Origin: Escherichia phage vB_EcoM_IME392
Length of the DNA stretch: 64,000 nt
Sequence record: MH719082.1
Direction: 5' to 3' (one strand)
Position numbers and translations under genes: made by a program. Below, one piece after another: positions 8,771 through 64,000 of the stretch. The notes below the pieces were generated by a model. It did not search any database, was not told the DNA's origin, and saw only the letters and a list, made by a program, of their open reading frames with translations. Positions within the stretch are counted from its first letter, which is position 1, and every line of letters begins with the position of its first letter.

Positions 8771-8783
8771 TATTGTACATATT

Positions 8784-8811
8784 CAAAAATTAGGGTGGCC
8801 GAAGCCACCCT
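8784..8811 (-). terminator. Rho-independent terminator after the topoisomerase II medium-subunit gene
   Basis: AGGGTGGC-cgaa-GCCACCCT (8-bp GC-rich stem; UUCG loop on the minus transcript), immediately followed on the minus strand by TTTTT. Confidence 0.6.
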
Positions 8812-8817
8812 AGTTAG

Positions 8818-10065
8818 TTACAGTTTACCGATCATCTTCTGAATCATCTCGTCAGAAGTCTGATTCTCTACCTTAGCACGACGTTCTTGCAGATTAGCAA
8901 TGCGGTCGTCGTGATCTTTCTTACGTAGCATGCTGATGCTACGGCTAAGGCAGGAATTCAACACTTCCTGGGTAATACCGAGAGCTTTGATGATCTGAGC
9001 ATCAGACTTATCCTGCATAACCAGCTCGCCCACTTTAGGAAGAATCTGGTAAATCTCGATGTCTCGGTCAATCTTCTTAAGAGACTCAGTCTTATGGACG
9101 GAGAATGCCTGATTGTAGAGAGCCATCGTGACTGCAATCCAGTCGCGAATACCCATCGTCACCAGTTGACCATTGTAGGCTACCTGGATACGATGCGAGC
9201 GGTTCATGTAAGCAATATTCATGCATGCTTCGTGAACCTCGTCCATATCGATGGTCCTGATACGGGGAGCCTTCATTACTCGGATATAGATCTTATCCTT
9301 GGACATGTTCTTGACCAGGATCTTACCTTCTGATAACCACTTATTCAGGAACCCGATGCGAGGAGTAATTACCTCACCAGACCCGATGATGTCGATGGTG
9401 TCGGTATTGACGCGAGTTACCTTAAGGGTAAGGCCTAAGCGACCTACACCAGTTTCCCATAAGGACTTAAGGTCTGACTTACTCGGCACGATATCATACC
9501 CGTACTGAGCCTTAAGCAGATTATAATCGTCATGCTTGTAGGCTTCCAGCAGACTCTCGTAAGTGAATGCTGGGATACGGGACTGAATACCAGTAGCCCA
9601 TGAGAAGGTACCATACATCAGAGCATACGGAATAGGCACTGGAAGGTATGCGTATTCCATCTTCTCTTCACCTTCAACCTGCGGAACATAGTCCGCTAGA
9701 CCGAAGTAGTATTCTGCACGATCTTCGTTCAGGCCAACCTTCGTGTAACGAGGAGCAGCACCAGGAACTTCTTCCAGCAACTTAACGCCGAAAGATCCCT
9801 GACCATCAATAGCACCGATGCGAGCAAGACGGGAAATAGTCCCATCGATAGACTGGTCACCGAATGGGTGTAGCGACTGAGTTTCTGAGATAGCGCTCAG
9901 AGTCCCCACCAGCTTCCCACGAGCAATGCTATTCAGAGCCATGTAGATACGGCGCTGGGCAGGAATCAGGCCATCGATACCGGGAACTACACGATGAAGA
10001 GCACAATACACACTGTAGTCAGTGTAGTTCTTGGTGATGAATTCAGAAATCTTTACCTGTTCCAT
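8818..10065 (-). CDS. DNA topoisomerase II medium subunit (GyrA-like cleavage domain; T4 gp52-like)
   Basis: 415 aa. VVPGIDGLIPAQRRIYMAL resembles the GyrA/ParC DGLKPVQRR-ILY motif. Adjacent to and co-oriented with the ATPase/Toprim subunit. AAGGAG RBS. Confidence 0.75.
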   Translation of the reverse strand: MEQVKISEFITKNYTDYSVYCALHRVVPGIDGLIPAQRRIYMALNSIARGKLVGTLSAISETQSLHPFGDQSIDGTISRLARIGAIDGQGSFGVKLLEEVPGAAPRYTKVGLNEDRAEYYFGLADYVPQVEGEEKMEYAYLPVPIPYALMYGTFSWATGIQSRIPAFTYESLLEAYKHDDYNLLKAQYGYDIVPSKSDLKSLWETGVGRLGLTLKVTRVNTDTIDIIGSGEVITPRIGFLNKWLSEGKILVKNMSKDKIYIRVMKAPRIRTIDMDEVHEACMNIAYMNRSHRIQVAYNGQLVTMGIRDWIAVTMALYNQAFSVHKTESLKKIDRDIEIYQILPKVGELVMQDKSDAQIIKALGITQEVLNSCLSRSISMLRKKDHDDRIANLQERRAKVENQTSDEMIQKMIGKL

Positions 10066-18148: not shown

Positions 18149-18152
18149 CGGA

Positions 18153-49981: not shown

Positions 49982-51351
49982 ACATAATTCAAGATTCCTC
50001 TCTATCCTTCGACCAGATCAGAACGGATTTAGAGAACTATATTAAGTCTCTTCCAGATTATGAGACTAAGTGGAAGGACTTCTACGAGGCTGGTGCTGGC
50101 GAAACAGTACTTAATACTGGTGCTGGTATCACTGCATTCTTAGCTTACGCTGCCTACATGAACCGCCGAGATTCGTTACTGGATTTCGGCAATATGACCT
50201 CGACCATCGTGTCTATTGGGTCTGCATTAGGTTACGTGTATAATCGTAAATCTGCTCCTCTTCTCCAGATTACGTTTACATCCACTGAGCAAGTTTACTG
50301 GGATAAGGAAGATCCTATCGGTAACTACATGGGTCGTTCTCTGGTTCTCACCAACTCCACCCAAATAGAAGTTGGCGTGAACACCATTGTGGTTGCTATA
50401 GGTGATTGGGTCTCTCAGGAGATAACCATCACTGATGCTAAGGATTTTAAAGGTATCAACGTACCTATTCAGCCTGATAATAATCTGGTTAACCTGTATA
50501 TCGATGGAGAGAAGATCTCCTACACCACAGCTGCGGAAGATATGGATTCGGACAATGTCCTAATTCGTTCTTACTTCTCGGGAATATTCATTATCTTCGG
50601 GAACGGGTCACTGGGCAGGAAGGCTGCTGTTAACCAGGTACTTAAGATAGAGTACGTTGCTCCCGCTGATAAACTAGATGGGTTAACTCTGGATCCTACC
50701 AAGATTCAGTTATACGTTGAAAATACGAGTAACTCATCTGAAGTTAAATACCCTGGGTCAGACCCTGATAGTCCTGAGAAGATCGTTGCTATTGCTCCTG
50801 GTTATTATTCAGCCAAGAGACGTCTGGTTACTCTGGACGATTACGCTTCGATAGGTGCTTCTTATCAGGGTGTGGTAAGTGCTAACGCTGCTCTTCCGAC
50901 TACTTCTTGCTGCTCGGTTAACGTCTCGTACCTACGAGCCGATGAATTAACCATGAATGATGCTATGAAGGCAGATTTCGAGAAGTATATGCTGCAGTAC
51001 GCCATGCTGGGTTCTAACATAAATGTTATAGACCCTATCAGGATCATGGTCGATGTTAAGATGCGAGTGGTTATTGACTCCGGAGCTGATACGGATGCCA
51101 TTACCAAGAAGATTCGTGAAACCATAAATAAAAAGTGCATGACTAACGGTGCATTCTTTACGGTTAACGATATGACTCTGCCAGAGTCTCTTCGCGTTAG
51201 ACGTATCTACATTAAGCAGCCTATTCTTGACCGACAGGCTAAGTACAATGAGTACTATAAGCTCCGCAAACTGGAGATCAGTTATACGGAAGATCGGACT
51301 CTGGTAGATTCCGGAGGCACAGATAAGAATGCGGGGTATGAGTATGGCTAA
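49978..51351 (+). CDS. Baseplate protein J-like (gpJ/gp6-like)
   Basis: 457 aa, ATGA overlap with the W-like gene; position and size fit the V-W-J-I module. Confidence 0.5.
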   Translation: MNIIQDSSLSFDQIRTDLENYIKSLPDYETKWKDFYEAGAGETVLNTGAGITAFLAYAAYMNRRDSLLDFGNMTSTIVSIGSALGYVYNRKSAPLLQITFTSTEQVYWDKEDPIGNYMGRSLVLTNSTQIEVGVNTIVVAIGDWVSQEITITDAKDFKGINVPIQPDNNLVNLYIDGEKISYTTAAEDMDSDNVLIRSYFSGIFIIFGNGSLGRKAAVNQVLKIEYVAPADKLDGLTLDPTKIQLYVENTSNSSEVKYPGSDPDSPEKIVAIAPGYYSAKRRLVTLDDYASIGASYQGVVSANAALPTTSCCSVNVSYLRADELTMNDAMKADFEKYMLQYAMLGSNINVIDPIRIMVDVKMRVVIDSGADTDAITKKIRETINKKCMTNGAFFTVNDMTLPESLRVRRIYIKQPILDRQAKYNEYYKLRKLEISYTEDRTLVDSGGTDKNAGYEYG

Positions 51352-52822
51352 GTTCAACACTCTAGATTACTTCTCTCCTAACCTTAGAGGGAACGAGTTA
51401 TATAAGTTCTTCTCGCAGGTGCTGGATCATGGTCTAGAGACTGTTGTCTTTCCGGAGATGGATAAAAATACGGCGATTTATGATCCTAGTAAACCGTCTT
51501 ATGATCCGATTTATATCCTGGAGCTACTGGGTCAACCAGACTTAGCAGATCTCATAACTACCGAGGTAGACCAGAACTCAGTATCTGTACTCCTCCCAAG
51601 TATCCTTGATAACAAGGGTATGAAGGATGGGGTTGATCTTATCTTTAAGCTGATAAATGTAGAGATAGAAGAGATATTGTATCAGAAGACTCCGGAAGGC
51701 TGCTCACTGGCAACCATCCTGCTTCCTAAGAACGTGATCTTGTCTACTCGGCAGATTAAGCTAATTGATCGTCTGTCGCGTAAGGTATTTCCGATATGCG
51801 TAAGACTTACCGGTATCGCTAACTGTCTTCCAGATGGCGTTGAATCTCTCGGAAGCGCCTCCTTGGACACCAGTTGGTTGCTAGACACATCAATCCTGGA
51901 TGGTTCAGTAGGTATACGAGTCCCAGATATTTCGGATACTCTATGGCTGCGATTCTGTCTCGATATTATGTCGGAGATGGAAGTACCTCTTGAAGTGTTG
52001 ATTGATCGCTTCTCGGATCGTCTGATGAACTCTTATCTGACTGTATTCGATAGGAGAACTATCAAGCTAGATAATGGTCTTATTCTGGATATGGGTACAT
52101 ACTTAGATCTCCAGAATACCGACACTGCTCACAGCAGACTCTATAGCTCATTGGCTAAGTTTAATGTAGATTTAAGCGCCGATTCCAGAACTACTGAGAT
52201 TGAGTCCTTACTGGACTTATCAGACTTGGTAGCTGGGTTGGAGTTTAAGTCCTCTATGCTGCGTGAGATCTTCCTGTTCTTGGATATCGACCTCTCAGAG
52301 TTCGGATTCCAGAATTACATGGATAGGAAGATAGAGCACTTATCCAAGGGGATAGAGCAAGTAAATTATGGATATGAGGGTGGTAATTACGCTGATGGTT
52401 ACGATTTAACTAACTATCAGGGTTTCGAATACGAGAACTTATACGTAATCCAATCTCATCGTGATGGCCAAACTCAGCGTAGCGGGACGGCTTATTACGG
52501 ATTGCCGGAAATAGACTGGCTACACTTCGAAGGTATGGACTTCATTAATGGGTCTTACCTGCTGGATGGTACTCGTTATCTTCACCAGGAGTTCATTAAA
52601 AAGATCAAAGTGTACGATTGGTATACTCATTGGTCTAGCTACCGAGAAGCTATGTTCCTAACCACTCATAAGACCGAAAGACTCTTAGAGAAACGGGATG
52701 GGACTATTCTCCATGACGGAACTTATAATCGCGGTGAGAAAGTAACTCGTTACGGATTCGAACCTCTGTACAACGACGTTATTAGTCACGATGATACTTA
52801 CTATCGCGATGCCAATCTATAG
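51329..52822 (+). CDS. Baseplate/tail protein (gpI-like position; possible fibre-attachment protein)
   Basis: 497-aa ORF following the J-like gene; true start may be the ATG at 51344. Confidence 0.4.
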   Translation: MRGMSMAKFNTLDYFSPNLRGNELYKFFSQVLDHGLETVVFPEMDKNTAIYDPSKPSYDPIYILELLGQPDLADLITTEVDQNSVSVLLPSILDNKGMKDGVDLIFKLINVEIEEILYQKTPEGCSLATILLPKNVILSTRQIKLIDRLSRKVFPICVRLTGIANCLPDGVESLGSASLDTSWLLDTSILDGSVGIRVPDISDTLWLRFCLDIMSEMEVPLEVLIDRFSDRLMNSYLTVFDRRTIKLDNGLILDMGTYLDLQNTDTAHSRLYSSLAKFNVDLSADSRTTEIESLLDLSDLVAGLEFKSSMLREIFLFLDIDLSEFGFQNYMDRKIEHLSKGIEQVNYGYEGGNYADGYDLTNYQGFEYENLYVIQSHRDGQTQRSGTAYYGLPEIDWLHFEGMDFINGSYLLDGTRYLHQEFIKKIKVYDWYTHWSSYREAMFLTTHKTERLLEKRDGTILHDGTYNRGEKVTRYGFEPLYNDVISHDDTYYRDANL

Positions 52823-52830: not shown

Positions 52831-53598
52831 ATGAGCAATTATACTGGGGCATTTAACTTTCATGCTCAGGTGTACCAATTTGAAGAAAGTGATGTGGTTA
52901 AAGGTGGCCCGGACGGCATTGATAACGTGCCTCTTACCCAGCTGTCAGATCGTACGTTTTATCTTAAGGCTCTTGCTGACTTTACATTCCTTAAGCTATT
53001 CAATCTTAATCCTCTCGGCTCGTTCAAACAAGGATTCCAGATTAACGTGGCTGGGTATGCGGTCTTCGACGAGGCCTCCGGTAAGTGGTTTAAGTGGACA
53101 GGATCTCTACCTAAAGTAGTGGTTAAGTCTTCTAAGCCAGAAACTACTGGAGGTATCTATGATCCAACCACCAATCCGAGCGGTAAGTGGGTGGCTATTG
53201 ACTTCAGTGTTCTAGACCTTGGCGCTGGGGTTAAGATCCCTACAGCAGCTGCTCCTGGTAATCTGTATAGCGGTAAGTACAATCCAGCCTTCGTTAAGAT
53301 TGAGAATGTCTCCAATCTAGACATAGCAGAAGCCATATATACCAGACTAGGGAATGTGGTTACTGTTAATGGCAAGATCACTGCTTCTGCTACCGATGCC
53401 GGAGAAGTAATGAAAATAGGAATTGGCTTACCTATTAACGCTACCTTCTCAGATGACTCAAGCCTCTCAGGAGTTGGCGTTGGTATAGTAGCTGGTCAGA
53501 TTTATGCCGATGTGGACAGTAGTGTGGCTGTTCTTGAGATTAATCAGGGTAGTACAGACGAGCTGTCTCTGAGATACACGTTCTCTTACACTATATAA
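52831..53598 (+). CDS. Tail fibre/adapter protein with shared N-terminal attachment module
   Basis: 255 aa. N-terminal GGPDGIDNVPLTQLSDRTFYL and SGKWFKWTGSLPKVVVKSSKPETTGGIYDP are shared with ORFs 53611, 59505 and 62616. Confidence 0.5.
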   Translation: MSNYTGAFNFHAQVYQFEESDVVKGGPDGIDNVPLTQLSDRTFYLKALADFTFLKLFNLNPLGSFKQGFQINVAGYAVFDEASGKWFKWTGSLPKVVVKSSKPETTGGIYDPTTNPSGKWVAIDFSVLDLGAGVKIPTAAAPGNLYSGKYNPAFVKIENVSNLDIAEAIYTRLGNVVTVNGKITASATDAGEVMKIGIGLPINATFSDDSSLSGVGVGIVAGQIYADVDSSVAVLEINQGSTDELSLRYTFSYTI

Positions 53599-53610
53599 TA
53601 GGATATCGAA

Positions 53611-54528
53611 ATGGGTACTTATCAGGGTAAAAATCAGTACGTAGAGGACATCTATACCTTCGAACGTACTGACAAAGTGTCGGGTGGTGATGACGGTATT
53701 GATAACGTACCCATTAAGAATCTTACCGACAGAACTACATATCTCCGTAGTCTAGCATTGAATTCATTCCTGGATATCTATGGGATTAACCCAGTAGGTA
53801 CTTTCGGGATAGGATTTGATCTCCAGGACTCTGGGGATGGTGTGTATGACGAGGTGTCTGGCAAGTGGTATTACTGGCTAGGCTCCTTCCCCAAATCTGT
53901 TGCCGAGAATTCTTCTCCGGAAGATACTGGTGGTATCTTCGACCCAGAAAGTAATCCAGATGGATTATGGACTGAGGTAATTCCGGTAAACCAGCGTCAG
54001 GTAGATATGGCTGCTCGGGCATTCCGAGTTAAGACCGAAGAAGTCCAGTTCATGAAAGTAGGTCGTCCTCTCGACGGCTTTCGTGTATTGTATGACTTAG
54101 CTTCCCAGGAAGCTTATCGTTTACCTATGGATATCCCTGAAGGATCAACTATTGTTAGCTTAACAGACGGAGGGTGGCTAGAGCATAGCAATGGCAGGGT
54201 AAACTTATCTGCTTACGCCGTCGAATTAGAAGAGTATAAGTACTTTACCGGAGGCGACTTCAGTACCGGCTTTACTCTACGTCAGAACCACTGCATAGTT
54301 ATGCATGATGGTGTTCTGTATCGCTGGGATGGCGATTTTCCGAAGACCGTAAATGCTAACAGTACTCCAGAATCAGACGGTATTGGTGATGGTAAATGGG
54401 TTCCTGTTAAGACTGGTGCCCTGTATCGCTATGCTACTGTTGCCCAGTTAGATAGTGTTGAGAATGCTCTAACTACTCGCATAAACGAAGTAGAGAGCGC
54501 CGCTTTTGTTAACGCATTACTGTTCTAA
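53611..54528 (+). CDS. Tail fibre/adapter protein (paralogue of 52831..53598)
   Basis: 305 aa. GGDDGIDNVPIKNLTDRTTYL and SGKWYYWLGSFPKSVAENSSPEDTGGIFDP, plus a second copy of the module near the C-terminus (VLYRWDGDFPKTVNANSTPESDGIGDGKWVPV). Confidence 0.5.
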   Translation: MGTYQGKNQYVEDIYTFERTDKVSGGDDGIDNVPIKNLTDRTTYLRSLALNSFLDIYGINPVGTFGIGFDLQDSGDGVYDEVSGKWYYWLGSFPKSVAENSSPEDTGGIFDPESNPDGLWTEVIPVNQRQVDMAARAFRVKTEEVQFMKVGRPLDGFRVLYDLASQEAYRLPMDIPEGSTIVSLTDGGWLEHSNGRVNLSAYAVELEEYKYFTGGDFSTGFTLRQNHCIVMHDGVLYRWDGDFPKTVNANSTPESDGIGDGKWVPVKTGALYRYATVAQLDSVENALTTRINEVESAAFVNALLF

Positions 54529-54537
54529 GGAATACCC

Positions 54538-54879
54538 ATGGCAGCTAAATTTAAACGAGCTAGCGCTACGCTAACTAAATCTGAATCTACCATTTATACT
54601 ACTCCGGCTACTGGTGCTATAATCGTTGGAATCCTGGCAGCCCATAATGGTGTTACAGATGCTGCAGCTCAGTTTCAGCTTAAGATTAAACCTGCATCTG
54701 GAAATGATGTATACCTGCTAGGTAAAGACACTAATCTTCCTCAGAAGTCGGCATTGAATATCGATTCTGCTAAGGTAATTCTCATGGATGGTGATCAGGT
54801 AGTAGCTTCAGCATCTGCTGTAGATACTTCTAATAACTCGAACATGGTAGACCTGACTCTTTCCATTGTGGAGAACTAA
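54538..54879 (+). CDS. Hypothetical tail protein
   Basis: 113-aa ORF with AAGGA RBS. Confidence 0.4.
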   Translation: MAAKFKRASATLTKSESTIYTTPATGAIIVGILAAHNGVTDAAAQFQLKIKPASGNDVYLLGKDTNLPQKSALNIDSAKVILMDGDQVVASASAVDTSNNSNMVDLTLSIVEN

Positions 54880-54880
54880 T

Positions 54881-56227
54881 ATGGGTGGTTATATTGGTTT
54901 CAATCCATCTGATGGTGCTGGTGAACTTCGTAATGAATTGACTCCTAAGATCAAGAACAACCAGGATAACATCATCGAGTTGTGGGCGAATGACTTAGCC
55001 GATTGTGGTTACAATCTGGCAGCTACTTTCGAGTTCGGTGGTATCTTATCTAACCGATTCGATCTGGTAGTATCTCTTGATCGTCAGCGTGCATATTCAT
55101 GGAAGGGTAACTTTCCAGTAGATATTGCAAACGCACCTATCACCCATTCTAATTGGGTACCTTGGTCGATCGACCAAATGGGTGCTGGTAACTTATTGGA
55201 AGTTAAGTGGGTATCCTCTCGTAAGTTATTAGGGTCACCATTATGGGGTGGATTCGTAGCAGCTGATGGTGGTATCTTCTCACGTATCTTGTATCCTGAT
55301 ACTTGGGCAGCAGTCAATGCTGGACTAGTACAAGTATGTCCTGAAGCTGACTGGGTAGCTGATCCTACTAAGCGCCACTGCTATACTACTGGTGATGGTA
55401 CTACTACCTTCCGAGTACCTGACTTAAATGGTGCGTACCGTCATCCTAGTGACTCCTCTAAGAACTCCATTCCAGGATTATTCTTACGTGGTGATAATGG
55501 TAGTGACTACGGATACGTCCAGCGTAATGCTGCACCTAATATTACTGGTATTATACAAGGTCGTACTTCTGGTACTTATGGTCGACTATTCAGTCAATCT
55601 ACTATTAATAGTGGAGCATTACAAACTAGTGATGAGAATGGTGGTGAATTCGCTACTGGTACAGTAACTGCATCGACTCCATCTGATCGTATGAGTAAGT
55701 TACTATTTGATGCATCAAAATCACTTACACCAGGTGCTGAGGCTTACGGTCGTGCTGAACCTAATGGTGCACCTGCTGATGAAGTCCGACCTAACAGTGC
55801 AGTAGGTTGTTACGCTATCCGTCTACAAGGTCGAGTTGTGAATCCCGGTACGGTGGATCTGTTATCATTAGTTGATACAGTTGCAGGTATGACTATAGGT
55901 AATACACCTAGCAGTAATCAGATTCCTAACATGAAGCATTGGACTCGTGGAGGGTCAGGTCGTGCATGGTGGAGGAAAGAACCTGATGGATTCATTAGAC
56001 AGGGAGGATTCTTTACTGCTAATGTTAGACCTGGTTCAGGTACTAAAGTGTACGTTGATGTAACATGGGCTATACCATTCCCTAATGAATGTAACTCAGT
56101 AACCGTAGGTGATGCTGGATTCGGTGATGGTAATATGTGGGGCGCCACTAATATCACCAGGACTGGAGCTCGTTTATGGTGTAGCGCAGTAGGCGAGGGT
56201 GGTTACTACTTGGCTGAGGGCTACTAA
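54881..56227 (+). CDS. Tail fibre protein with phage tail-collar-type domain (receptor-binding protein 1)
   Basis: ORF track 54866..56227; ATG at 54881. Contains YPDTWAAVNAGLVQVCPEADWVADPTKRHCYTTGDGTTTFRVPDLNGAYRHP, a tail-collar-type motif. Followed by a Tfa-like chaperone gene. Confidence 0.55.
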   Translation: MGGYIGFNPSDGAGELRNELTPKIKNNQDNIIELWANDLADCGYNLAATFEFGGILSNRFDLVVSLDRQRAYSWKGNFPVDIANAPITHSNWVPWSIDQMGAGNLLEVKWVSSRKLLGSPLWGGFVAADGGIFSRILYPDTWAAVNAGLVQVCPEADWVADPTKRHCYTTGDGTTTFRVPDLNGAYRHPSDSSKNSIPGLFLRGDNGSDYGYVQRNAAPNITGIIQGRTSGTYGRLFSQSTINSGALQTSDENGGEFATGTVTASTPSDRMSKLLFDASKSLTPGAEAYGRAEPNGAPADEVRPNSAVGCYAIRLQGRVVNPGTVDLLSLVDTVAGMTIGNTPSSNQIPNMKHWTRGGSGRAWWRKEPDGFIRQGGFFTANVRPGSGTKVYVDVTWAIPFPNECNSVTVGDAGFGDGNMWGATNITRTGARLWCSAVGEGGYYLAEGY

Positions 56228-56655
56228 TGGCTAATTATCTATATAGCAATTCTCGTAAATCGTTCTATCCAGTATCGTTAATAGAAAATTATCAAAATAG
56301 CATAAACGGATTACCTGAAGATTTAGTAGAAGTCAGTGATTCTGACTTTAATGAATTTTCTCAGAGTCGTACTAATGAGTGCTGTAATTTAACTGAATCA
56401 GGATTCGAGTGGATTCCTAAAGGTCCTGAACCAGTATCAGTCGAAGATGCTCATCGTATCAAGAGTATCTTGATAAATAGTGCTAATAAGACTATTAGTA
56501 CCTGGCAGACTAAGTTGATGCTTAATAGACTATCTGACGAAGATAAAGTCAAACTGAATGCTTGGTTGGACTACATCGATGAGCTGGAAGCTATCAATCC
56601 TGACTCAGTAGAAGATACATCAGCTATCCCGTGGCCTACTGCTCCTGAAGCATAA
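56227..56655 (+). CDS. Tail fibre assembly protein (Tfa-like chaperone) 1
   Basis: 142 aa. C-terminus LSDEDKVKLNAWLDYIDELEAINPDSVEDTSAIPWPTAPEA, paralogous to 58118..58726; lies directly downstream of a fibre gene. Confidence 0.55.
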   Translation: MANYLYSNSRKSFYPVSLIENYQNSINGLPEDLVEVSDSDFNEFSQSRTNECCNLTESGFEWIPKGPEPVSVEDAHRIKSILINSANKTISTWQTKLMLNRLSDEDKVKLNAWLDYIDELEAINPDSVEDTSAIPWPTAPEA

Positions 56656-56666
56656 AGAGGTATAAA

Positions 56667-58118
56667 ATGTCAAATGGATATATTGGTACCTACCCTAAAT
56701 TCGCTATTTATTCTCCTGAGAAATTGGCGAAAGGTACCACCACTAAGACTCTGCAGTATGCTCCAGGATCAGCTTATGCAATTCTGGTAGTAGTAGGCGG
56801 GGCGATTCAGGAACCTAACGTAGCCTATACTGTAGCAGGTAATGTCATTACTTTCACGGAGACGCTCCCGTACGATGGATGGGTTCAGTACCGTGGACTT
56901 GAAGGTAAGGATGCTACTGACTTTATCGCAGCTGCAGGTGATCCAGTACTATCAGCACGTTGGGCATTCTCACGTGATCATATCTGGGATGGATTCGTTC
57001 CACTAGATGGTCAGGAATTATCTCGTGCTATGTACCCGTCAGCATGGGAGGCTATCAATGCTGGATTAGTACCAGTCGAGGATGATGCTGCATGGTTGGC
57101 TGATCCCAAGAAACGTGCATCGTTTACTAAGGGTGATGGTACTTCAACATTCCGAGTACCTGACCTTAATGGTAAGTTGGGTGATTCTATAAAGGGACTG
57201 CACATCCGTGGAGATAATGGTGATTCAGCTCGTACCGGTAAAGTACTCCAGAATGGCGCTCCGAATATTACAGGATACACTAATTTATTAGGGTATAACA
57301 CATGGGCAAATAATGCCGGAGCGGCCAACGGTGCATTAAACTTAAGCCAGGGTTTAGCATTCTCCAACGGTACCGATTTAGTTGTAAACTCTTCTTACAG
57401 AGAATTAAGAGCTAATTTAGATGCATCTAAATCTAATGCATCTTATGGTCGTGACGGCACTGATGAAGTGCGTCCTAATGCAGCTATTGGATGCTGGGTA
57501 GTCAAGTTATTCGCAGGTATCGCTAATGCTGGTGTAGCTGATCTGCAGCAAGTGCTAGTCACGTTAGCTGGTAAGATGGATAAGACCAAGTACGAATTCG
57601 GTGTACCAATGATTGGCGTACCATTCTACTGGCCATCGGATAAGATGCCTGATGAAGTATATCCTGAGCTGAAAGGTATGCACTTCATCCAAGCTCGTGG
57701 TGATAACTTCGATGCTGAACTGTATCCTAAGTTAGCTACTGTTTATCCTAATAATAAGTTACCAGATTTACGTGGTGAATTCATCCGTGGTTGGGATGAC
57801 GGACGTGAAGTGGATACTGGACGAGCTCTGCTATCGCGTCAATCACATTCAATTATTGAACACTCACACTATATGGAGTTGTGGACAGGTGACGTACTTC
57901 ATTCTGGGGATGCTAGAGATGGGGTAAATGCAGGAGTACTGGCTACCTATGGTGATGGTGGGTCAATTAAATCTGACGAATCAGGTAATCATGTACCCTC
58001 CTTAGTACGAGCTATTAATACTCGTAATATTAATCGTTACAACGTAAATAGCGAAAATATAAGCACAGAAAACCGTCCACGTAACGTAGCATATAACATC
58101 ATTGTAAGGGCATTATAA
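56667..58118 (+). CDS. Tail fibre protein with tail-collar-type domain (receptor-binding protein 2; paralogue of 54881..56227)
   Basis: 483 aa. YPSAWEAINAGLVPVEDDAAWLADPKKRASFTKGDGTSTFRVPDLNGKL and KLPDLRGEFIRGWDDGREVDTGR. Confidence 0.55.
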   Translation: MSNGYIGTYPKFAIYSPEKLAKGTTTKTLQYAPGSAYAILVVVGGAIQEPNVAYTVAGNVITFTETLPYDGWVQYRGLEGKDATDFIAAAGDPVLSARWAFSRDHIWDGFVPLDGQELSRAMYPSAWEAINAGLVPVEDDAAWLADPKKRASFTKGDGTSTFRVPDLNGKLGDSIKGLHIRGDNGDSARTGKVLQNGAPNITGYTNLLGYNTWANNAGAANGALNLSQGLAFSNGTDLVVNSSYRELRANLDASKSNASYGRDGTDEVRPNAAIGCWVVKLFAGIANAGVADLQQVLVTLAGKMDKTKYEFGVPMIGVPFYWPSDKMPDEVYPELKGMHFIQARGDNFDAELYPKLATVYPNNKLPDLRGEFIRGWDDGREVDTGRALLSRQSHSIIEHSHYMELWTGDVLHSGDARDGVNAGVLATYGDGGSIKSDESGNHVPSLVRAINTRNINRYNVNSENISTENRPRNVAYNIIVRAL

Positions 58119-58726
58119 TGAGCATTGAATTTAACGATCAAGGTTTTGCCACCACTTCTGGTAAAGTGATGGTTTATAACTACAATGAAGATACTCGTGA
58201 ATTCACATTTAATCGTGAAGAGTTTATCTACGTAGGTGTATCGGTACCAGCTCACTCCACAATCGTTCCAGTGCCTGCAGAACGTGAAGGATATGCTCGA
58301 GTGTATCATGAAGATACCAAGAAGTGGGAATATGTAGAAGATCACCGTGGAGTAGAAGTTTACTCAAAAGCTGATCAAACTAAAGTAACTATCCAGGAAC
58401 TCGGACCTATCGACGATATCTACACTACGATTGCTCCTACTTCAATCCATGATAATTGGGATGAAGATACTGGTGCATGGGTACTAGATGAAGTTGCTGA
58501 GCACGAAGCTAAGGTGGTTGCGGCTGATGCCAAGAAAGTAACATTGATTGAGGATGCTAATGCTTATATCAATAGTAAGCAGTGGCCATCCAAACTGGCA
58601 ATGGGCCGACTGAGCGATGCTGATAAAGTCAAGTTCAATTTGTGGCTAGATTATCAGGAGGAAGTAGAAGCTATTGAAACTACTGATCCTGATACTATCG
58701 TATGGCCAGAAGCACCTGCTAAGTAA
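58118..58726 (+). CDS. Tail fibre assembly protein (Tfa-like chaperone) 2
   Basis: 202 aa. C-terminus LSDADKVKFNLWLDYQEEVEAIETTDPDTIVWPEAPAK. ATG overlaps the upstream stop (TAATG). Confidence 0.55.
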   Translation: MSIEFNDQGFATTSGKVMVYNYNEDTREFTFNREEFIYVGVSVPAHSTIVPVPAEREGYARVYHEDTKKWEYVEDHRGVEVYSKADQTKVTIQELGPIDDIYTTIAPTSIHDNWDEDTGAWVLDEVAEHEAKVVAADAKKVTLIEDANAYINSKQWPSKLAMGRLSDADKVKFNLWLDYQEEVEAIETTDPDTIVWPEAPAK

Positions 58727-58801
58727 TATTTATTAAGGGGTAGTTATGTCAATTAATTACATGACTCCAGATAGTATCGTGATTGTAAGTGAGGTGTCAA
58801 T

Positions 58802-59425
58802 ATGAGCCTCACCCGTCTTAAGTATTTAATGAACGAAGGTACAGATGCTGAAGTTGAAGCGTATCTACGCCAGCTGGGTATCGGTAATGGAGCTCCATTA
58901 ATAGGAGTACCGTTCCCGTGGGTTCATCCTACCAAGATGCCTGATGAGATATTTACTTCAATGAAGGGTATGCGATTTCTGAAGATGAATGGTCAGACAT
59001 TCGATCCAGAAACATACCCAGAACTGGCTAAGCTATGGACAACTAATCAGTTACAAGATCTACGTGCACAATTTATCCGTGGATGGGATGACGGTCGAGG
59101 CATGGATGCAGGACGAACGATCAATACTGGTCAGTCAGATTCTGCCCCAGAAATATCTGGTTGGTTCAGGACTGTTAATACTGAGAATGCATCAATCTGG
59201 GAAAGCATAACATCAGGATTTGGTTCTGGAGCTCTCTACGGTACTAATACTAAAGGTCAGTATTATAGATTAGCGGGACTTCCAATGGATATTAACGCTA
59301 CCTATAAGTATCCTACAGTAATTAACTTCTTGGCATCACGATCATCTTCAGTATATGGACGAAACGGCACCAATGAAATTGTACCTAAAAACGTAGCATT
59401 TCTGTACATCGTTCGAGCTAAATAA
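58802..59425 (+). CDS. Short tail fibre-like protein with tail-collar-type motif
   Basis: 207 aa. IGVPFPWVHPTKMPDEIF and LQDLRAQFIRGWDDGRGMDAGR. Confidence 0.45.
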   Translation: MSLTRLKYLMNEGTDAEVEAYLRQLGIGNGAPLIGVPFPWVHPTKMPDEIFTSMKGMRFLKMNGQTFDPETYPELAKLWTTNQLQDLRAQFIRGWDDGRGMDAGRTINTGQSDSAPEISGWFRTVNTENASIWESITSGFGSGALYGTNTKGQYYRLAGLPMDINATYKYPTVINFLASRSSSVYGRNGTNEIVPKNVAFLYIVRAK

Positions 59426-59504
59426 ATAAATAGCTACAATAGCAGGTGCAACTTGTACATGGGTTATGATAAACGAAGTGTTGACAATATCATAGGGTGA
59501 TTAA

Positions 59505-62492
59505 ATGTCTTATAATCCAATTGTAGAAGGGTCAACTTGGCCCGAGACTATTCGCCGCTTAGAAAAGACGGATAGGGCAGAAGGCGGTCAACTAGTTACT
59601 AATTCTAAGGATGAACCAGTATCCGGACATATTAATCATCCAATAACCCAATTAGCTACTAGAACCTCCATTTTAAAAAAGTCTAATTTATCGATAATTA
59701 ATAATACTAAAGAACAGTGGAAGTTATTACTCGGTGACTTAGGACTAACTCTTGTTGGCACTTTTGAAGAAGGTGCTACAGTAAACAGTAAAAAGGATGC
59801 TGTCTGGCATATTGATGGTGGCCAGTGCTACGTGTGGGGTGGCGTGCTCCCTAAGACTGTATATGCTAACTCCTCACCGCTAACTACTGGTGGTGTCTCT
59901 TCTGATGCTTGGGTTAGTATTGGTGATACCGCACTGCGAGGGCAAATATCAGACCCGGATGGTGCAACAAAATACCCCGAATTGCAGATTGCTCGATGGC
60001 GTGACATTTTCGACCCTCGTGGTTGGGGAGCTAAAGGTGATGGATTAGTCGATGATACTGTGGCTCTTAATAATCTGTTAAGCGCTGCTCCAGTAGGTCA
60101 GAAAATTAATGGTAACGGCAGAACCTATAAAGTATCCGCACTTCCAGATATTAGCAGATTCGTTAACACTCGTTTCGTTTATGAGCGTATTCCTGGCCAG
60201 CCGCTTTATTATGTATCTGACGAGTTTGTTCAGGGTGAGTTAATTAAAATAACCGATACCCCTTATTACAATGCTTGGCCTCAGGATAAAGCGTTCGTTT
60301 ACGACGATGTTATTTACTGTCCGTTCATGGCTAGCGATCGGCACGGGGTTAGCAGGCTTCATGTATCCTGGGTTCGCTCAGGTGATGACGGACAGACCTG
60401 GACGACCCCGGAGTGGCTAACTGACCTACACCCTAATTACCCAACAGTTAACTACCACTGTATGAGTATGGGGGTGATGCGTAATCGTCTCTTTGCGATG
60501 ATTGAGACCCGTACTTTAGCAGCTAACGCATTAGTGACCTGTGAGTTGTGGGATCGCCCCATGTCCCGTAACTACCATCTGACAGGTGGTATAACAAAAG
60601 CTGCCAACCAGCCTGTGGCTGTAATTACCATCCCTGAACACGGTCTTTTTGCTGGGGATTTTGTTAACTTCTCGAACTCTGGGGTGACTGGCGTTTCTGG
60701 GAATATGACTGTAACTTCAGTTATTGACCGCAACACGTTTACAGTTACCACGCCAAATCAACAAGCATTCGACCAAAATAACTCTACCAGCCGCTGGCAT
60801 ATGGGGACATCGTTCCATCAGTCACCATGGCGTAAAACCAGCCTTGGATTGATCCCTATGGTTACCGAGGTTCACAGTTTTACCGCCATCAATAACGATT
60901 CATTCATGATGGGGTACCATCAGGGTGATGTTGCTCCGCGTGAAGTAGGTATGTTGTATTTCCCTGATGCATTTAACAATCCTGGGCATTATATAAAACG
61001 ACGTATCCCTGCTGAATATGAGCCGGATGCGGCAGAACCCTGTGTTAAATATTTTGACGGTGTTCTTTATGTTGTAACCCGTGGAACTCGGTCGGACCGT
61101 CTGGGTAGTTCGCTTCATCGTAGTAATGATTTGGGTATAACCTGGCAATCATTGAGGTTCCCGAATAATGTCCACCACTCCACCCTGCCATTCGCTAAGG
61201 TAGGAAACGAACTGATTCTTTTCGGCACTGAACGCGCCGACAACGAGTGGGAAGCAAACGCACCCGACCAGCGATATTTTAGTTCTTACCCACGAACGTT
61301 TTACACGCGAGTGAACCTCGACACCTGGAACCTGGATAATACTCAGTGGGTGAATATCACTGACCAGATTTATCAGGGTGGTATTGTTAACTCTGGCGTC
61401 GGTGTCGGATCGGTCGTCGTGAAAGATAGTTATATCTATTACATGTTCGGTGGGGAAGACCATCTGAACCCATGGACATATGGAGATAACTTAGAGAAAG
61501 ACCCATTCAAATCAGACGGTCATCCCTCAGATTTGTATTGTTACAAAATGCAGATCGGTCCAGACAATCGTGTTTCTCGTGATTTCAGGTACGGTGCTGT
61601 ACCTGACAGAGCGGTTCCAGTGTTTTTTGATACGAATGGAGTTCGCACTGTTCCTGCTCCAATGGAATTTACAGGGGATTTGGGTTTAGGTCATGTGACC
61701 ATTAGAGCCAGCACCAGTAGTAACATTCGCTCTGAAGTTTTAATGGAAGGTGAGTATGGGTTTATCGGGAAATCTGTACCGACTAATAACCCTGCAGGTC
61801 AGCGCATCATATTTTGCGGAGGCGACGGTACCAGTTCTTCTACTGGTGCACAGATTACGCTTTACGGTGCGAGTAACACAGCTTCTCGCAGGATAGTTTA
61901 CAACGGAGATGAGCATCTGTTTCGGAGTGCTGATGTTAAGCCTTATAACGATAACGTCATTGCGCTTGGTGGGCCTAGCAACCGTTTCACCACTGCATAC
62001 CTCGGAAGCAACCCTATTGTTACTTCTAACGGAGAGAAGAAAACAGAGCCGGTAGTTTTTGATGATGCTTTTTTAGATGCTTGGGGCGATGTTCATTACA
62101 TCATGTATCAGTGGTTGGATTCTGTACACCTGAAAGGAAATGACGCTAGAATCCATTTTGGCGTAATTGCTCAGCAGATCCGCGATGTATTCATTGCTCA
62201 CGGTCTGATGGATGAGAACAGCACGGATTGCCGCTATGCTGTTCTGTGTTACGACAAATATCCTCGCATGACAGACATGGTGTTCTCTCACTATGAAATA
62301 GTTGAACACACTGACGAGGAGGGTAATGTCACTACCACGGAAGAACCTGTATACACCGAGGTGGTTATTCACGAAGAGGGTGAGGAGTGGGGTGTGAGGC
62401 CTGATGGAATTTTCTTTGCTGAGGCAGCATTCCAGAGAAGAAGACTGGAAAGAATCGAAGCCAGACTTTCCGATCTTGAAAAGAAGCAGTAA
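59505..62492 (+). CDS. Tailspike: endosialidase-like (sialidase beta-propeller with Asp-boxes) with C-terminal intramolecular chaperone domain
   Basis: 995 aa. N-terminal adapter module (QCYVWGGVLPKTVYANSSPLTTGG); two Asp-box/BNR motifs SGDDGQTW and SNDLGITW; C-terminal region ending in the coiled-coil RRLERIEARLSDLEKKQ, typical of autoproteolytic chaperone domains. Confidence 0.65.
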   Translation: MSYNPIVEGSTWPETIRRLEKTDRAEGGQLVTNSKDEPVSGHINHPITQLATRTSILKKSNLSIINNTKEQWKLLLGDLGLTLVGTFEEGATVNSKKDAVWHIDGGQCYVWGGVLPKTVYANSSPLTTGGVSSDAWVSIGDTALRGQISDPDGATKYPELQIARWRDIFDPRGWGAKGDGLVDDTVALNNLLSAAPVGQKINGNGRTYKVSALPDISRFVNTRFVYERIPGQPLYYVSDEFVQGELIKITDTPYYNAWPQDKAFVYDDVIYCPFMASDRHGVSRLHVSWVRSGDDGQTWTTPEWLTDLHPNYPTVNYHCMSMGVMRNRLFAMIETRTLAANALVTCELWDRPMSRNYHLTGGITKAANQPVAVITIPEHGLFAGDFVNFSNSGVTGVSGNMTVTSVIDRNTFTVTTPNQQAFDQNNSTSRWHMGTSFHQSPWRKTSLGLIPMVTEVHSFTAINNDSFMMGYHQGDVAPREVGMLYFPDAFNNPGHYIKRRIPAEYEPDAAEPCVKYFDGVLYVVTRGTRSDRLGSSLHRSNDLGITWQSLRFPNNVHHSTLPFAKVGNELILFGTERADNEWEANAPDQRYFSSYPRTFYTRVNLDTWNLDNTQWVNITDQIYQGGIVNSGVGVGSVVVKDSYIYYMFGGEDHLNPWTYGDNLEKDPFKSDGHPSDLYCYKMQIGPDNRVSRDFRYGAVPDRAVPVFFDTNGVRTVPAPMEFTGDLGLGHVTIRASTSSNIRSEVLMEGEYGFIGKSVPTNNPAGQRIIFCGGDGTSSSTGAQITLYGASNTASRRIVYNGDEHLFRSADVKPYNDNVIALGGPSNRFTTAYLGSNPIVTSNGEKKTEPVVFDDAFLDAWGDVHYIMYQWLDSVHLKGNDARIHFGVIAQQIRDVFIAHGLMDENSTDCRYAVLCYDKYPRMTDMVFSHYEIVEHTDEEGNVTTTEEPVYTEVVIHEEGEEWGVRPDGIFFAEAAFQRRRLERIEARLSDLEKKQ

Positions 62493-62615
62493 ATAAAGAC
62501 TTTTACCGTAGGTAGGAGAAGGTAGAGGCTTCAATTTAAGATTTAACTTAAACTAATCACCACTCTAAAGTTACTAAGTGTTTGTACATCATGTAATATT
62601 TTATGGAGATCACCA

Positions 62616-64000
62616 ATGGGCGGTCGTTCTAAGTTATTTAGCGAACTGGGCGGAGCTCCTCTTAATACTTATCAGCATGATAACCAGACTCTCGATATTC
62701 GCGAGTTAGAAAATCAGCAGAAAGTATTAGACGAGACTCTTGCCGAAACAATAGGCAACGTTAACGAGTTGCAACAGACTGCTGGTCAGTCTATGTATAT
62801 CCTCGGTAACTATGCCTCCGGAATGGTGATCGAGAACGACCGCCAGTACGTCAGATATGATAATCTGCTGTACTATTGGACTGGTCCTGTACCGTTCACT
62901 ACCACCGGCAACTTCTACGAAGAATCCTACTGGACTGGTGGGGTACAGAGCGGTATCGAGTGGAGTTACGAGGTACAGGAAGATGGGGAATTCGAGTTTA
63001 ATATTCCTTACTCCTTTACCAACGTACGTCTATTCGTAGGTGGTGTCCGCCTTACTCGCGTAGAAGATTACACTATCGATGTGATTAATCGCAAGATCAC
63101 TCTGACTAAGGTTAAGCTGTCGAAGGGTGTCCTGGTGACTGCCGAGCTGAACTCTCGTGATGCTCTTAGCGTTACCCAGGATCGCATCGATAGCCTTACC
63201 AGAGAGATCTCAGAGAAAGTAGGTTTCGTTAATTACAAACTTACTGATCTGTCTGAAGGTCAGAGCCTGACTCTCACTACCAGAGTCCAGACTGTAAGCT
63301 TCTCAGTAAATGGGGAGTATTATAAATGGGATGGCGTTCTTCCTAAAGTTGTTAATTATGGAGATCCGGAGCCATCTCAATCTGAACAGGGGACTGGTAA
63401 GTGGATTCCTGTAGGTTCTGGTGCTCTTAAGTCAGAGCTCATGACTGCTGGCGAAACTACTGGTGCTGCTATTGTCTATCTGAGATATGGTGGCACGGTG
63501 GCTGATGGTATTCGATACATCACCCCAGAAATGGCTCGAGCTAAAGGCGACGGTACTACGGACGATACAGCAGCTCTTCGCTCTGCTGTTACCCTGGCTA
63601 AGACTTATGGTCTTAAGCTTATGGGTATGGGTACTTACAAGATCTCTAACCAATCGGTGGATATTTCCGGGGTAGTGATCGAGAACCTAACCATAGTTGG
63701 TACCGGTGCTAGTTCACAGCTGCTGGTTAATGGCGATACGGACATAACTAAGCTGAACCTTAGCAAATGCGGTATTCGTCACATCAACGGTATCTTTAAA
63801 CTCGACCAGTTCGAAATTAATGACTGTTCTGCGACTGCTGCTCTGCTGTGTCAGCAATTAGCAGCTAATAGCCAACTGTTCGTCACTAATGGTATTATGC
63901 GTCGCTGTAACTATGGTTACCTCCGTCAGGGTAGTCCTGCATCTTCCAAGCCGCTCACTGCGACTCTGCTACAGAACTTACAGTTCTTCGACATGAAGAG
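62616..64000 (+). CDS. Second tailspike, right-handed beta-helix depolymerase-like (pectate-lyase-fold), 3' end beyond window
   Basis: ATG at 62616 with GGAG RBS; open to the window end (not in ORF track). N-terminal adapter module (EYYKWDGVLPKVVNYGDPEPSQSEQGTGKWIPVG), then GDGTTDDTAALRSAVTLA, the characteristic start of pectate-lyase-type beta-helix glycanase domains. Confidence 0.55.
   Translation, partial: MGGRSKLFSELGGAPLNTYQHDNQTLDIRELENQQKVLDETLAETIGNVNELQQTAGQSMYILGNYASGMVIENDRQYVRYDNLLYYWTGPVPFTTTGNFYEESYWTGGVQSGIEWSYEVQEDGEFEFNIPYSFTNVRLFVGGVRLTRVEDYTIDVINRKITLTKVKLSKGVLVTAELNSRDALSVTQDRIDSLTREISEKVGFVNYKLTDLSEGQSLTLTTRVQTVSFSVNGEYYKWDGVLPKVVNYGDPEPSQSEQGTGKWIPVGSGALKSELMTAGETTGAAIVYLRYGGTVADGIRYITPEMARAKGDGTTDDTAALRSAVTLAKTYGLKLMGMGTYKISNQSVDISGVVIENLTIVGTGASSQLLVNGDTDITKLNLSKCGIRHINGIFKLDQFEINDCSATAALLCQQLAANSQLFVTNGIMRRCNYGYLRQGSPASSKPLTATLLQNLQFFDMK

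What the first reader, a model, noticed from the sequence alone, without database searches (positions are those of the whole stretch)
52831..64000. Multivalent receptor-binding arsenal with duplicated fibre-chaperone cassettes and a shared adapter module
At least seven receptor-binding-type proteins are encoded in series. Two are paralogous collar-domain fibres, each followed by its own Tfa-like chaperone (54881-56655 and 56667-58726), and there is a third short collar-domain protein. Two adapter proteins and both tailspikes share a conserved module of about 35 aa (Y/W-x-W-x-G-x-[LF]-P-K-x-V-x-A-x-S-x-P-x-x-T-G-G), which could dock them to a common baseplate site. The second tailspike (62616 onward) has a GDGTTDDTAAL beta-helix start, so a second polysaccharide specificity is likely. 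This looks like a modular system for broad or switchable host range.
Basis: partly seen in the sequence, partly recalled or inferred. Interest (0 to 1): 0.55.

Follow-up and report, generated by a model that had tools for sequence, protein, structure and literature searches.

The report
Multi-receptor tail-fibre and tailspike locus
This is the host-recognition gene block of a rarely sampled E. coli phage, combining two capsule-degrading tailspikes with an imported set of tail fibres; it is a known kind of system, but it exposes a widespread, apparently undescribed three-part joint that may attach fibres to the phage tail.

Summary
Between 52831 and 64000 lie ten intact, same-strand genes: two N-terminally paralogous proteins (A, B), a 113-aa protein (C), two partly paralogous fibres each followed by a Caudo_TAP chaperone (D/E, F/G), a short knob protein (H), a K1F-type endosialidase (I) and a phi92-gp150-like colanidase (J, cut by the window end).

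The shared ~35-60 aa module is real. It is Pfam PF18668, the head/XD jelly-roll of CBA120 and G7C tailspikes. In those phages it joins tailspikes to each other, not to a common baseplate site.

Comparison with EP_H11 and metagenomic relatives gives nucleotide-level cassette boundaries:
- A and B are conserved under purifying selection.
- C to H is one six-gene block, also found in an unrelated myophage backbone.
- The endosialidase body was swapped in at a junction inside the module.

B is a tailspike head without a body. A carries its own widespread C-terminal tip domain, so it is a short fibre rather than an adapter.

One result goes beyond the finding. C belongs to an unannotated family that always sits between a protein ending in a 9-residue hydrophobic tail and a fibre starting x-Y-I-G.

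Nothing supports switchable host range. This is a new variant of a known kind, of moderate interest.

The parts
51329..52822 (+). 497-aa protein just upstream of the locus; candidate baseplate hub for the N-terminal anchors
   Evidence: No Pfam, PHROG or NCBIfam family. Nucleotide homology to EP_H11 stops at 52096, inside this gene. The first ~200 aa are 97-100% identical to the EP_H11 protein, the rest ~30-50%. It is 98% identical over its full length in relatives that keep A and B. dN/dS 0.05.
52831..53598 (+). A: short fibre made of an N-terminal anchor (aa 1-50), a PF18668 module (aa ~56-115, nt 52996-53175) and a C-terminal tip domain (aa ~135-255)
   Evidence: Pfam hit. The N-terminal 123 aa are 49% identical to B and 48% to EP_H11 e1. 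The tip domain has 1496 cluster representatives and always lies at the extreme C-terminus. dN/dS 0.075-0.13.
53611..54528 (+). B: tailspike head without a body. Anchor (aa 1-50), PF18668 module (aa ~56-112, nt 53776-53946), D1-D2 head (aa 126-272; second module nt 54232-54420), helical neck, and hydrophobic tail AAFVNALLF
   Evidence: Aligns to CBA120 TSP3/TSP1 head residues 16-159 (E 1.6e-28) and to G7C gp63.1. 316-aa orthologues at 93% and 88% identity carry an 11-aa neck insertion. dN/dS 0.06-0.09.
54538..54879 (+). C: 113-aa protein of an unannotated family (phrog_1276 / phrog_26609); proposed connector between B and the YIG fibres; first gene of the mobile fibre block
   Evidence: families; block boundaries at 54537 and 54561; conserved three-gene arrangement in eight non-redundant contexts.
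54881..56227 (+). D: tail fibre 1. N-terminus MGGYIG, weak module copy (aa ~44-82, nt 55010-55126), central domain shared with F, Gp53-like_C tip
   Evidence: 76% identical to the L009 homologue, with the N-terminal 130 aa almost identical.
56227..56655 (+). E: Tfa-type chaperone for D
   Evidence: Caudo_TAP, E 8e-19. Only 46% identical to the L009 copy, where the D tip (from about aa 400) is also not alignable.
56667..58118 (+). F: tail fibre 2. N-terminus MSNGYIG, central domain shared with D, C-terminal collar/gp37-like tip
   Evidence: Pfam Collar, E 2e-10. PDB 8hqz, 2xgf and 9cuy. 82% identical to the L009/L010 homologue.
58118..58726 (+). G: Tfa-type chaperone for F
   Evidence: Caudo_TAP, E 9e-17. 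90% identical to the L009 copy. dN/dS 0.08.
58802..59425 (+). H: free-standing knob protein, paralogous to the tip of F; last gene of the mobile block
   Evidence: 35% identical to F aa 312-482. One or two H-like genes are kept at the same place in L009/L010.
59505..62492 (+). I: K1-specific endosialidase tailspike. Lineage-specific anchor (aa 1-72), PF18668 module (aa 80-143, nt 59742-59933), endoNF body, S74 chaperone
   Evidence: Pfam. PDB 1v0e/3gvl E=0 and 3gw6. 90-93% aa identity to the YX22 and UE-S5a endosialidases from aa 81 and aa 155 onwards. Junction zone ~59805-59955.
62616..64000 (+). J: colanidase-like tailspike, cut by the window end. Own conserved N-terminus, weak module (nt 62799-62912), strong module (nt 63252-63425), start of the beta-helix
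   Evidence: The 873-aa orthologue in L002 is 98% identical and matches phi92 gp150 (6e0v) at E 6e-69.

Best explanation
The region encodes the complete peripheral adsorption apparatus of an EP_H11-like E. coli myophage. All its parts are probably expressed together and mounted together on the baseplate.

Three kinds of attachment are inferred:
1. A, B and the endosialidase I share an N-terminal anchor of about 50 aa (E-x-[ST]-D ... GG ... N-x-P ... L-x-x-RT-x-YL). This anchor most likely binds the variable C-terminal part of the upstream 497-aa protein.
2. Each of these proteins, and J, then carries one or two PF18668 jelly-roll modules. In CBA120 and G7C such modules form trimeric platforms or heads that join tailspikes to each other.
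3. B is a tailspike head that stops after its neck, in a short hydrophobic tail. I propose that B, the small protein C and the fibres D and F (both starting x-YIG) form a composite fibre, with B as the proximal piece, C as the connector and D/F as the distal pieces. E and G fold the tips of D and F.

Functionally, I depolymerises the K1 polysialic acid capsule and J degrades colanic acid. A, D, F and perhaps H bind further surface receptors.

The locus evolves by exchange of defined blocks: the six-gene block C to H, the body of I, and the tips of D and F together with their chaperones.
For: Shown:
- Domain identities.
- Paralogy map.
- Purifying selection on every gene, with dN/dS of 0.05-0.32 for all but E (0.77, diverging together with the D tip) and H versus the first L009 copy (dS saturated).
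- Backbone colinearity with EP_H11 at 95% up to 52096, then loss of homology.
- Relatives L002-L005 keep the 497-aa protein, A, B and J at 75-98% aa identity but replace C to H and the body of I. The breakpoints are 54561, 59479-59487, 59720 or 59927, and 62548-62553.
- The same C-D-E-F-G-H block occurs in an unrelated myophage backbone (L009/L010). Homology starts 1 nt before the C start codon.
- The N-terminal 130 aa of D and of F are nearly identical in both backbones, although the baseplates differ.
- The endosialidase body is shared at 90-93% aa identity with an Ackermannviridae phage and a Schitoviridae phage, joined inside the module.

Support for the B-C-D joint:
- In eight non-redundant contexts a C-like gene is preceded by a protein ending in a 9-residue hydrophobic tail and followed by a fibre with [YF][IL]G within its first 8 residues, mostly as M-x-YIG. 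The contexts include Rhizobium phage RHph_TM30, Delftia phage PhiW-14, Puniceispirillum phage HMO-2011 and marine metagenome contigs.
- Among 335 ORFs of 12 loci, 8 of the 9 such tails and most of the 15 such N-termini belong to these neighbours.
- Depositors annotate the C-like protein as a virion structural protein in RHph_TM30 and as a putative structural protein in HMO-2011.

From the literature:
- Roles of XD and head domains: PMC8825819.
- Anchor-branch systems with a truncated first receptor-binding protein: PMC6872550.
- A split tailspike (gp49 plus gp48) in Shigella phage B2: PMC11654681.
Against: - No physical interaction was tested, and none could be modelled.
- The anchor-to-hub pairing rests on co-variation in a single comparison, with EP_H11.
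- C could be an assembly factor rather than a virion component.
- C and its counterpart in L002-L005 are only 33% identical, although B's tail is unchanged. This fits a two-faced connector but does not prove one.
- How J and H attach is unknown.
- The window ends inside J. By synteny with L002, L006 and EP_H11, further tail proteins probably follow.
Confidence: 0.65

Rival explanations
1. One reading: the shared ~35-aa module is the element that docks the two 'adapters' and both tailspikes to one common baseplate site.
For: The module is the most conserved element shared by A, B, I and J. In A, B and I it lies close to the N-terminus.
Against: It is internal rather than terminal, and it occurs twice in B and probably twice in J. 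It aligns to the D2 head domain that sits directly before the neck of CBA120 TSP1/TSP3 and of the YX22 tailspike. Related XD domains bind partner tailspikes, not the baseplate (PMC8825819). In I the module itself is part of the swapped cassette, while the first 72 aa stay with the lineage.
Confidence: 0.12
2. A and B are truncated leftovers of tailspikes, broken when the fibre block was inserted. They would be non-functional, or at most idle docking stubs.
For: EP_H11 has a single 780-aa tailspike with the same N-terminus in this slot. Truncated first receptor-binding proteins are known and have been interpreted as temporary docking sites (PMC6872550).
Against: dN/dS is 0.06-0.13, similar to baseplate proteins. 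Length and ends are kept in four relatives down to 75-88% identity. B ends cleanly after a coiled-coil neck whose length differs by exactly 11 aa between relatives. A ends in a complete tip domain found in 1496 protein clusters.
Confidence: 0.08
3. The YIG fibres D and F dock directly onto the PF18668 platforms of A and B through their short N-terminal peptide, as in G7C- and KP32-type anchor-branch systems. C would be a chaperone or assembly factor that is not in the virion.
For: Short conserved N-terminal peptides binding T4 gp10-like domains are the established model (PMC6872550). A and B each offer such a domain. C has no recognisable fold or family function.
Against: The same block, with near-identical D and F N-termini, works in the L009 backbone, which has no PF18668 protein near it. 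The same three-gene arrangement occurs in phages where none of the genes listed beside the C-like gene is annotated with that module. Depositors annotate the C-like protein as a structural protein in RHph_TM30 and HMO-2011.
Confidence: 0.2

Closest known systems
Branched tailspike complex of Kuttervirus CBA120 (TSP1-4) and other Ackermannviridae
   Same: Same PF18668 head/XD modules, with a D1-D2 head followed by a neck and a beta-helix body. Several depolymerases are encoded in series, and bodies are exchanged behind conserved N-terminal domains (PMC8825819, PMC11414711).
   Different: The backbone is unrelated. Three proteins, not one, carry an anchor-like N-terminus. One head protein has no body. 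Chaperone-dependent fibres are part of the set. No XD1 domain was detected.
G7C gp66/gp63.1 and Shigella phage B2 gp49/gp48 (Schitoviridae)
   Same: An anchor protein carrying the module holds a second receptor-binding protein. In B2 the anchor (44 kDa gp49) is a separate polypeptide that forms a complex with the tailspike gp48 (PMC11654681). B aligns to gp63.1, gp48 and gp49.
   Different: Those are podophages with one or two receptor-binding proteins. Here B is followed by a small protein and fibres, not by a tailspike that has a head domain.
Phage phi92 multivalent adsorption apparatus
   Same: An endosialidase and a gp150-type colanidase are combined in one myophage together with fibres.
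   Different: There is no backbone similarity: only EP_H11 matches in 50,697 phage records. The endosialidase is of the K1F/endoNF type, not endoN92.
T4 long tail fibre joint (gp34-gp35-gp36-gp37)
   Same: It works like the proposed composite fibre: a proximal piece, a small connector and a distal piece, encoded in that order. PhiW-14 gp63, the gene before its C-like gene, was annotated by its depositors as a gp36/gp34-like hinge connector.
   Different: No sequence similarity of C to gp35 or gp36 was found. The comparison is by analogy only.
Lambda/Mu/P2-type fibres with Tfa (Caudo_TAP) chaperones
   Same: D/E and F/G are fibre plus Caudo_TAP pairs. The tip of D and chaperone E diverge together.
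   Different: The fibres are short (448 and 483 aa) and start with a YIG peptide. They belong to a six-gene block that moves as a unit.

Membership tests
CBA120/G7C-type branched tailspike systems | PF18668 / T4 gp10-like jelly-roll modules in the N-terminal parts of the receptor-binding proteins | tested here: met
   Pfam hits in A, B (two copies), I and J. Alignments to 5w6f, 4oj5, 4qnl and 5w6h.
CBA120/G7C-type branched tailspike systems | Head domain(s), then a helical neck, then a catalytic beta-helix or propeller body | tested here: met
   Met for I and J: the module lies directly before the neck and body. B has the head and the neck but no body.
CBA120/G7C-type branched tailspike systems | One anchored protein physically carries the others in a branched complex | not testable with these tools
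   No complex prediction or experiment was possible. Three proteins have anchor-like N-termini.
phi92-like multivalent phages (Justusliebigvirus) | Endosialidase plus colanidase tailspikes | tested here: met
   I matches endoNF at E=0. The J orthologue matches gp150 at E 6e-69.
phi92-like multivalent phages (Justusliebigvirus) | Genome backbone related to phi92 | tested here: not met
   Only EP_H11 matches the structural module.
Anchor-branch systems with a truncated first receptor-binding protein (Latka et al. 2019) | Conserved N-terminal anchor plus a T4 gp10-like domain, with no enzymatic or binding body | tested here: met
   Met for B. Not met for A, which has a tip domain.
Anchor-branch systems with a truncated first receptor-binding protein (Latka et al. 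2019) | Partner receptor-binding proteins carry a short conserved N-terminal peptide | tested here: met
   YIG N-termini of D and F and of their counterparts in other phages. The docking partner itself was not shown.
Tfa-dependent tail fibres | Fibre gene immediately followed by a Caudo_TAP chaperone gene | tested here: met
   E and G. The same order is kept in L009/L010.
Switchable host-range systems (Gin/Cin invertible tips, DGR, phase variation) | Inverted repeats flanking alternative tips, or slippery repeats in the receptor-binding genes | tested here: not met
   Only short, imperfect inverted repeats. No significant tandem repeats. All genes lie on one strand. Invertase and reverse transcriptase genes were not searched for by name.

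The most novel reading that the evidence does not exclude
The hydrophobic C-terminal tail, the C-like ~110-aa protein and the x-YIG N-terminus together form an undescribed, widely distributed plug-and-socket joint for phage tail fibres. It would be shared by podophages and myophages of SAR11, Alphaproteobacteria, Betaproteobacteria and Enterobacteria. It would also explain how a whole six-gene fibre block could move between two unrelated E. coli myophage baseplates without changing the fibre N-termini.
Probability: 0.4. Interest if true: 0.6.

Novelty: new variant of a known kind. Interest (0 to 1): 0.45.

Why it matters
Multi-receptor phages are sought for therapy and diagnostics, and this locus targets K1 capsule, a marker of neonatal meningitis and urinary tract strains. 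It gives nucleotide-level boundaries at which nature has exchanged a tailspike body and a complete fibre block, which is directly useful for engineering host range. If the three-part joint is real, it would be a portable attachment standard. It would also assign a role to protein families listed without function (phrog_1276 and phrog_26609) that occur in abundant marine phages.

Tried and rejected
- AlphaFold2 of C (two-sequence alignment) and of A (single sequence) gave pLDDT 35 and 30, so no fold search was run.
- A profile of the A tip domain found no PDB or Pfam relative.
- The search for homologous proteins returned very few hits: 2 for B, 1 for J, 1 for C. It missed the 98% orthologue of J.
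- The exact-sequence look-up of H found nothing. A is present only on two short contigs, so the source genome could not be extended beyond 64000.
- A literature search by PDB codes gave only noise. No paper describing the C-like family was found.
- Promoter- and terminator-like sites are not enriched in the region.
- A frameshift joining C to D was considered and rejected. The reading-frame offset differs between the window and L002, and the two genes are called separately everywhere.
- H as a decaying remnant was rejected, because one or two H-like genes are kept in L009/L010.
Full report
**1. What is in the region**

The window is a large myophage. Its structural module runs on the + strand from about 29.3 kb to the window end.

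From 52831 onward there are ten intact genes, all with Shine-Dalgarno-like sequences:

| Gene | Coordinates | Length |
|---|---|---|
| A | 52831-53598 | 255 aa |
| B | 53611-54528 | 305 aa |
| C | 54538-54879 | 113 aa |
| D | 54881-56227 | 448 aa |
| E | 56227-56655 | 142 aa |
| F | 56667-58118 | 483 aa |
| G | 58118-58726 | 202 aa |
| H | 58802-59425 | 207 aa |
| I | 59505-62492 | 995 aa |
| J | 62616 to beyond 64000 | cut by the window end |

Pfam and PHROGs identify them as follows:
- E and G are Caudo_TAP tail fibre assembly proteins.
- F has a Collar domain and D has a Gp53-like_C domain.
- H is a tail-collar fibre tip.
- I is a complete endosialidase, with N-terminal extension, beta-propeller, beta-barrel, stalk and S74 chaperone.
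- J is a 'colanic acid degradation' tailspike.

I matches K1F endoNF structures at E=0. J's 873-aa orthologue matches phi92 gp150 colanidase at E 6e-69.

**2. The shared module**

It hits A, B (two copies), I and J.

A profile built from these five copies finds no other segment among 583 six-frame segments of the window. The exceptions are weak copies near the N-terminus of D (E 0.0045) and in J.

B residues 126-272 align to residues 16-159 of CBA120 TSP3 and TSP1, and to G7C gp63.1. That region is the D1-D2 'head' of those tailspikes. After a neck of about 35 aa, B stops.

In I, the module aligns with the D2 head domain of the Ackermannviridae phage YX22 tailspike, directly before the neck and the enzyme body.

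In CBA120, head domains and the related XD2/XD3 domains join trimeric tailspikes to each other. A separate N-terminal anchor domain binds the baseplate (PMC8825819). So the module is real and known. Its documented role is branching, not attachment to a common baseplate site.

**3. Paralogy**

All-against-all BLASTP gives the following map:

| Pair | Identity |
|---|---|
| A aa 1-123 vs B aa 1-123 | 49% |
| D aa 105-336 vs F aa 94-302 | 40% |
| E vs G, C-terminal 64 aa only | 50% |
| F aa 312-482 vs H aa 30-206 | 35% |

The 'duplicated cassettes' are therefore mosaics, not clean duplicates.

A, B and I share an N-terminal motif of about 50 aa (E-x-[ST]-D ... GG ... N-x-P ... L-x-x-RT-x-YL). This motif matches no solved structure by sequence.

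**4. Relatives and cassette boundaries**

Among 50,697 phage records, only Escherichia phage EP_H11 shares the backbone.

The window is colinear with EP_H11 at 95% nucleotide identity from 29969 to 52096. Homology then stops inside the gene for the upstream 497-aa protein:
- The first ~200 aa of that protein are 97-100% identical, the rest ~30-50%.
- EP_H11 carries different receptor-binding genes. Three of them share only their N-termini with A/B, I and J.

Four assembled relatives (L002-L005) keep the 497-aa protein (93-98%), A (75-91%) and B (88-93%). L002 and L003, the two loci that extend that far, also keep J (98%). C is only 33% identical, D to H are replaced by unrelated fibres, and the body of I is replaced by other enzymes.

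The nucleotide breakpoints against these relatives are:
- 54561, eight codons into C, in all four relatives;
- 59479-59487, just upstream of I;
- 59927 or 59720, inside I;
- 62548-62553, upstream of J.

The endosialidase body is 90-93% identical in protein to those of YX22 (Ackermannviridae) and UE-S5a (Schitoviridae). The junction zone, about 59805-59955, lies within the module.

**5. The fibre block moves as a unit**

A homologue of C (88% identical) lies in two assembled 113-kb contigs (L009, L010). There the same order C-D-E-F-G-H occurs in a different myophage backbone:
- That backbone has a PAAR protein, and its baseplate protein is only 23% identical to the window's.
- None of the called genes in those loci has a PF18668 hit on record.

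Homology starts at window position 54537, one nucleotide before the C start codon. Identities to the window are C 88%, D 76%, E 46%, F 82% and G 90%. L009 has two H-like genes (41-43% identical to H), and the one copy seen in L010 is 56% identical over its first 115 aa.

The N-terminal 130 aa of D and of F are almost identical in the two backbones.

The NG86 estimate gives dN/dS of 0.05-0.32 for all genes but two, and 0.06-0.13 for A and B. The exceptions are E (0.77), which diverges together with the D tip, and H against the first L009 copy, where dS is saturated.

**6. A is not a plain adapter**

Its C-terminal ~120 aa match 1496 cluster representatives. In every case the match lies at the extreme C-terminus of proteins of 129-1089 aa, many of them fibre-like.

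No Pfam or PDB relative was found, even with a profile. A is best read as a short fibre with its own tip.

**7. A conserved three-part arrangement**

C belongs to phrog_1276 / phrog_26609, both of unknown function. It has no Pfam or NCBIfam hit.

Wherever a C-like gene was found, two things hold:
- The gene just upstream ends in a 9-residue hydrophobic tail.
- The gene just downstream has [YF][IL]G within its first 8 residues, mostly as M-x-YIG (PhiW-14 has FIG at residues 6-8).

| Context | Upstream tail | Downstream start |
|---|---|---|
| Window (B, then D) | ...AAFVNALLF | MGGYIGFNP |
| L002 | same tail as B | MGYIGPNY |
| L009 (132-aa protein) | ...IMAMVIALG | MGGYIGFNP |
| L011, L014-L017 (marine contigs) | ...GFAVAMAVAL | MAYIGNSP (not seen in L011, whose contig ends) |
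| Rhizobium phage RHph_TM30 | ...AIAMAIALG | MSYIGAETP |
| Puniceispirillum phage HMO-2011 | ...GFAVAMAIAL | MPYIGQKVP |
| Delftia phage PhiW-14 | ...ALIWAIVMG | MALAGFIGATP |

Second fibres in the same loci also begin this way (F: MSNGYIG). Among 335 ORFs of 12 loci, 8 of the 9 such tails and most of the 15 such N-termini are these neighbours. Depositors call the C-like protein a virion structural protein in RHph_TM30 and a putative structural protein in HMO-2011.

**8. Most likely mechanism**

Shown:
- the domain identities;
- the cassette boundaries;
- purifying selection on the genes;
- the conserved three-gene arrangement.

Inferred:
- The anchors of A, B and I bind the variable C-terminal part of the 497-aa protein.
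- The modules provide trimer-to-trimer contacts.
- B, C and the YIG fibres D and F form a composite fibre. E and G fold the fibre tips.
- I and J remove K1 capsule and colanic acid. A, D, F and perhaps H bind further receptors.

Nothing indicates switching. There are no notable inverted repeats, no significant tandem repeats and no excess of promoter-like sites, and all genes lie on one strand.

**9. Comparison and novelty**

The closest systems are:
- the CBA120 branched tailspike complex;
- G7C gp66/gp63.1 and B2 gp49/gp48;
- phi92;
- the anchor-branch systems with a truncated first receptor-binding protein, described for Klebsiella phages (PMC8825819, PMC11654681, PMC6872550).

This locus is a new combination in a rarely sampled lineage, not a new kind of system. 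The part that may be new is the three-part joint. I found no description of it, but the literature search was limited.

**10. Limits**

- No interaction was tested.
- Both structure predictions failed.
- The window ends inside J. By synteny with L002, L006 and EP_H11, further tail proteins probably follow.

Noticed in passing
window 51329-52822 (break at 52096): The 497-aa protein upstream of the finding has no family in Pfam, PHROGs or NCBIfam. Only its C-terminal ~300 aa diverge from EP_H11, together with the receptor-binding genes. It may be the baseplate hub for the anchors.
   Followed up: partly
window 53182-53595 (A aa 118-255): An uncharacterised C-terminal tip domain with 1496 cluster representatives in the 1.84-billion-protein library. 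It always lies at the extreme C-terminus, and has no Pfam or PDB relative.
   Followed up: partly
window 62560-62610; L002 ~18150-18211; L001 27170-27203 and 29690-29712: A conserved intergenic sequence (ATCACCACTCTAAAGTTACTAAGT...TTGTACATCATGTAATATTTT) lies upstream of J in the window and in L002. Similar ATC(A/C)CCACTC motifs lie upstream of two EP_H11 tailspike genes. TTGTACAT also occurs upstream of I (59453-59460). This may be a phage late promoter.
   Followed up: no
L002 17693-18211: The 519-nt intergenic region between the tailspike gene and the J orthologue contains a run of 14 C. It could be an assembly artefact or a variable tract.
   Followed up: no
L009 14254-15491: The unrelated backbone carries two tandem H-like knob genes (191 and 177 aa) where the window has one. 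The copy number of these free-standing knobs varies, and their mode of attachment is unknown.
   Followed up: partly
window 54450-54528 versus L002 10873-10951: The neck of B differs from its orthologues by exactly 11 aa (TTHINTVNTAL), about three helical turns. This fits a coiled coil of adjustable length.
   Followed up: no
whole window / EP_H11: Two papers list EP_H11 among phages predicted to carry hypermodified thymidine (PMC12686479; bioRxiv 10.1101/2025.03.26.645540). PhiW-14, known to me for putrescinyl-thymine, shares the C-like gene. The replication genes in window 1-29000 were not examined.
   Followed up: no
L019 (RHph_TM30) 5001-9172: Rhizobium phage RHph_TM30 has a baseplate wedge protein 38% identical to the window's. 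Its gene order is also the same as in the window: C-like, fibre, chaperone-like DUF4376, collar fibre, fibre. This arrangement may therefore be ancestral to the wider group.
   Followed up: partly
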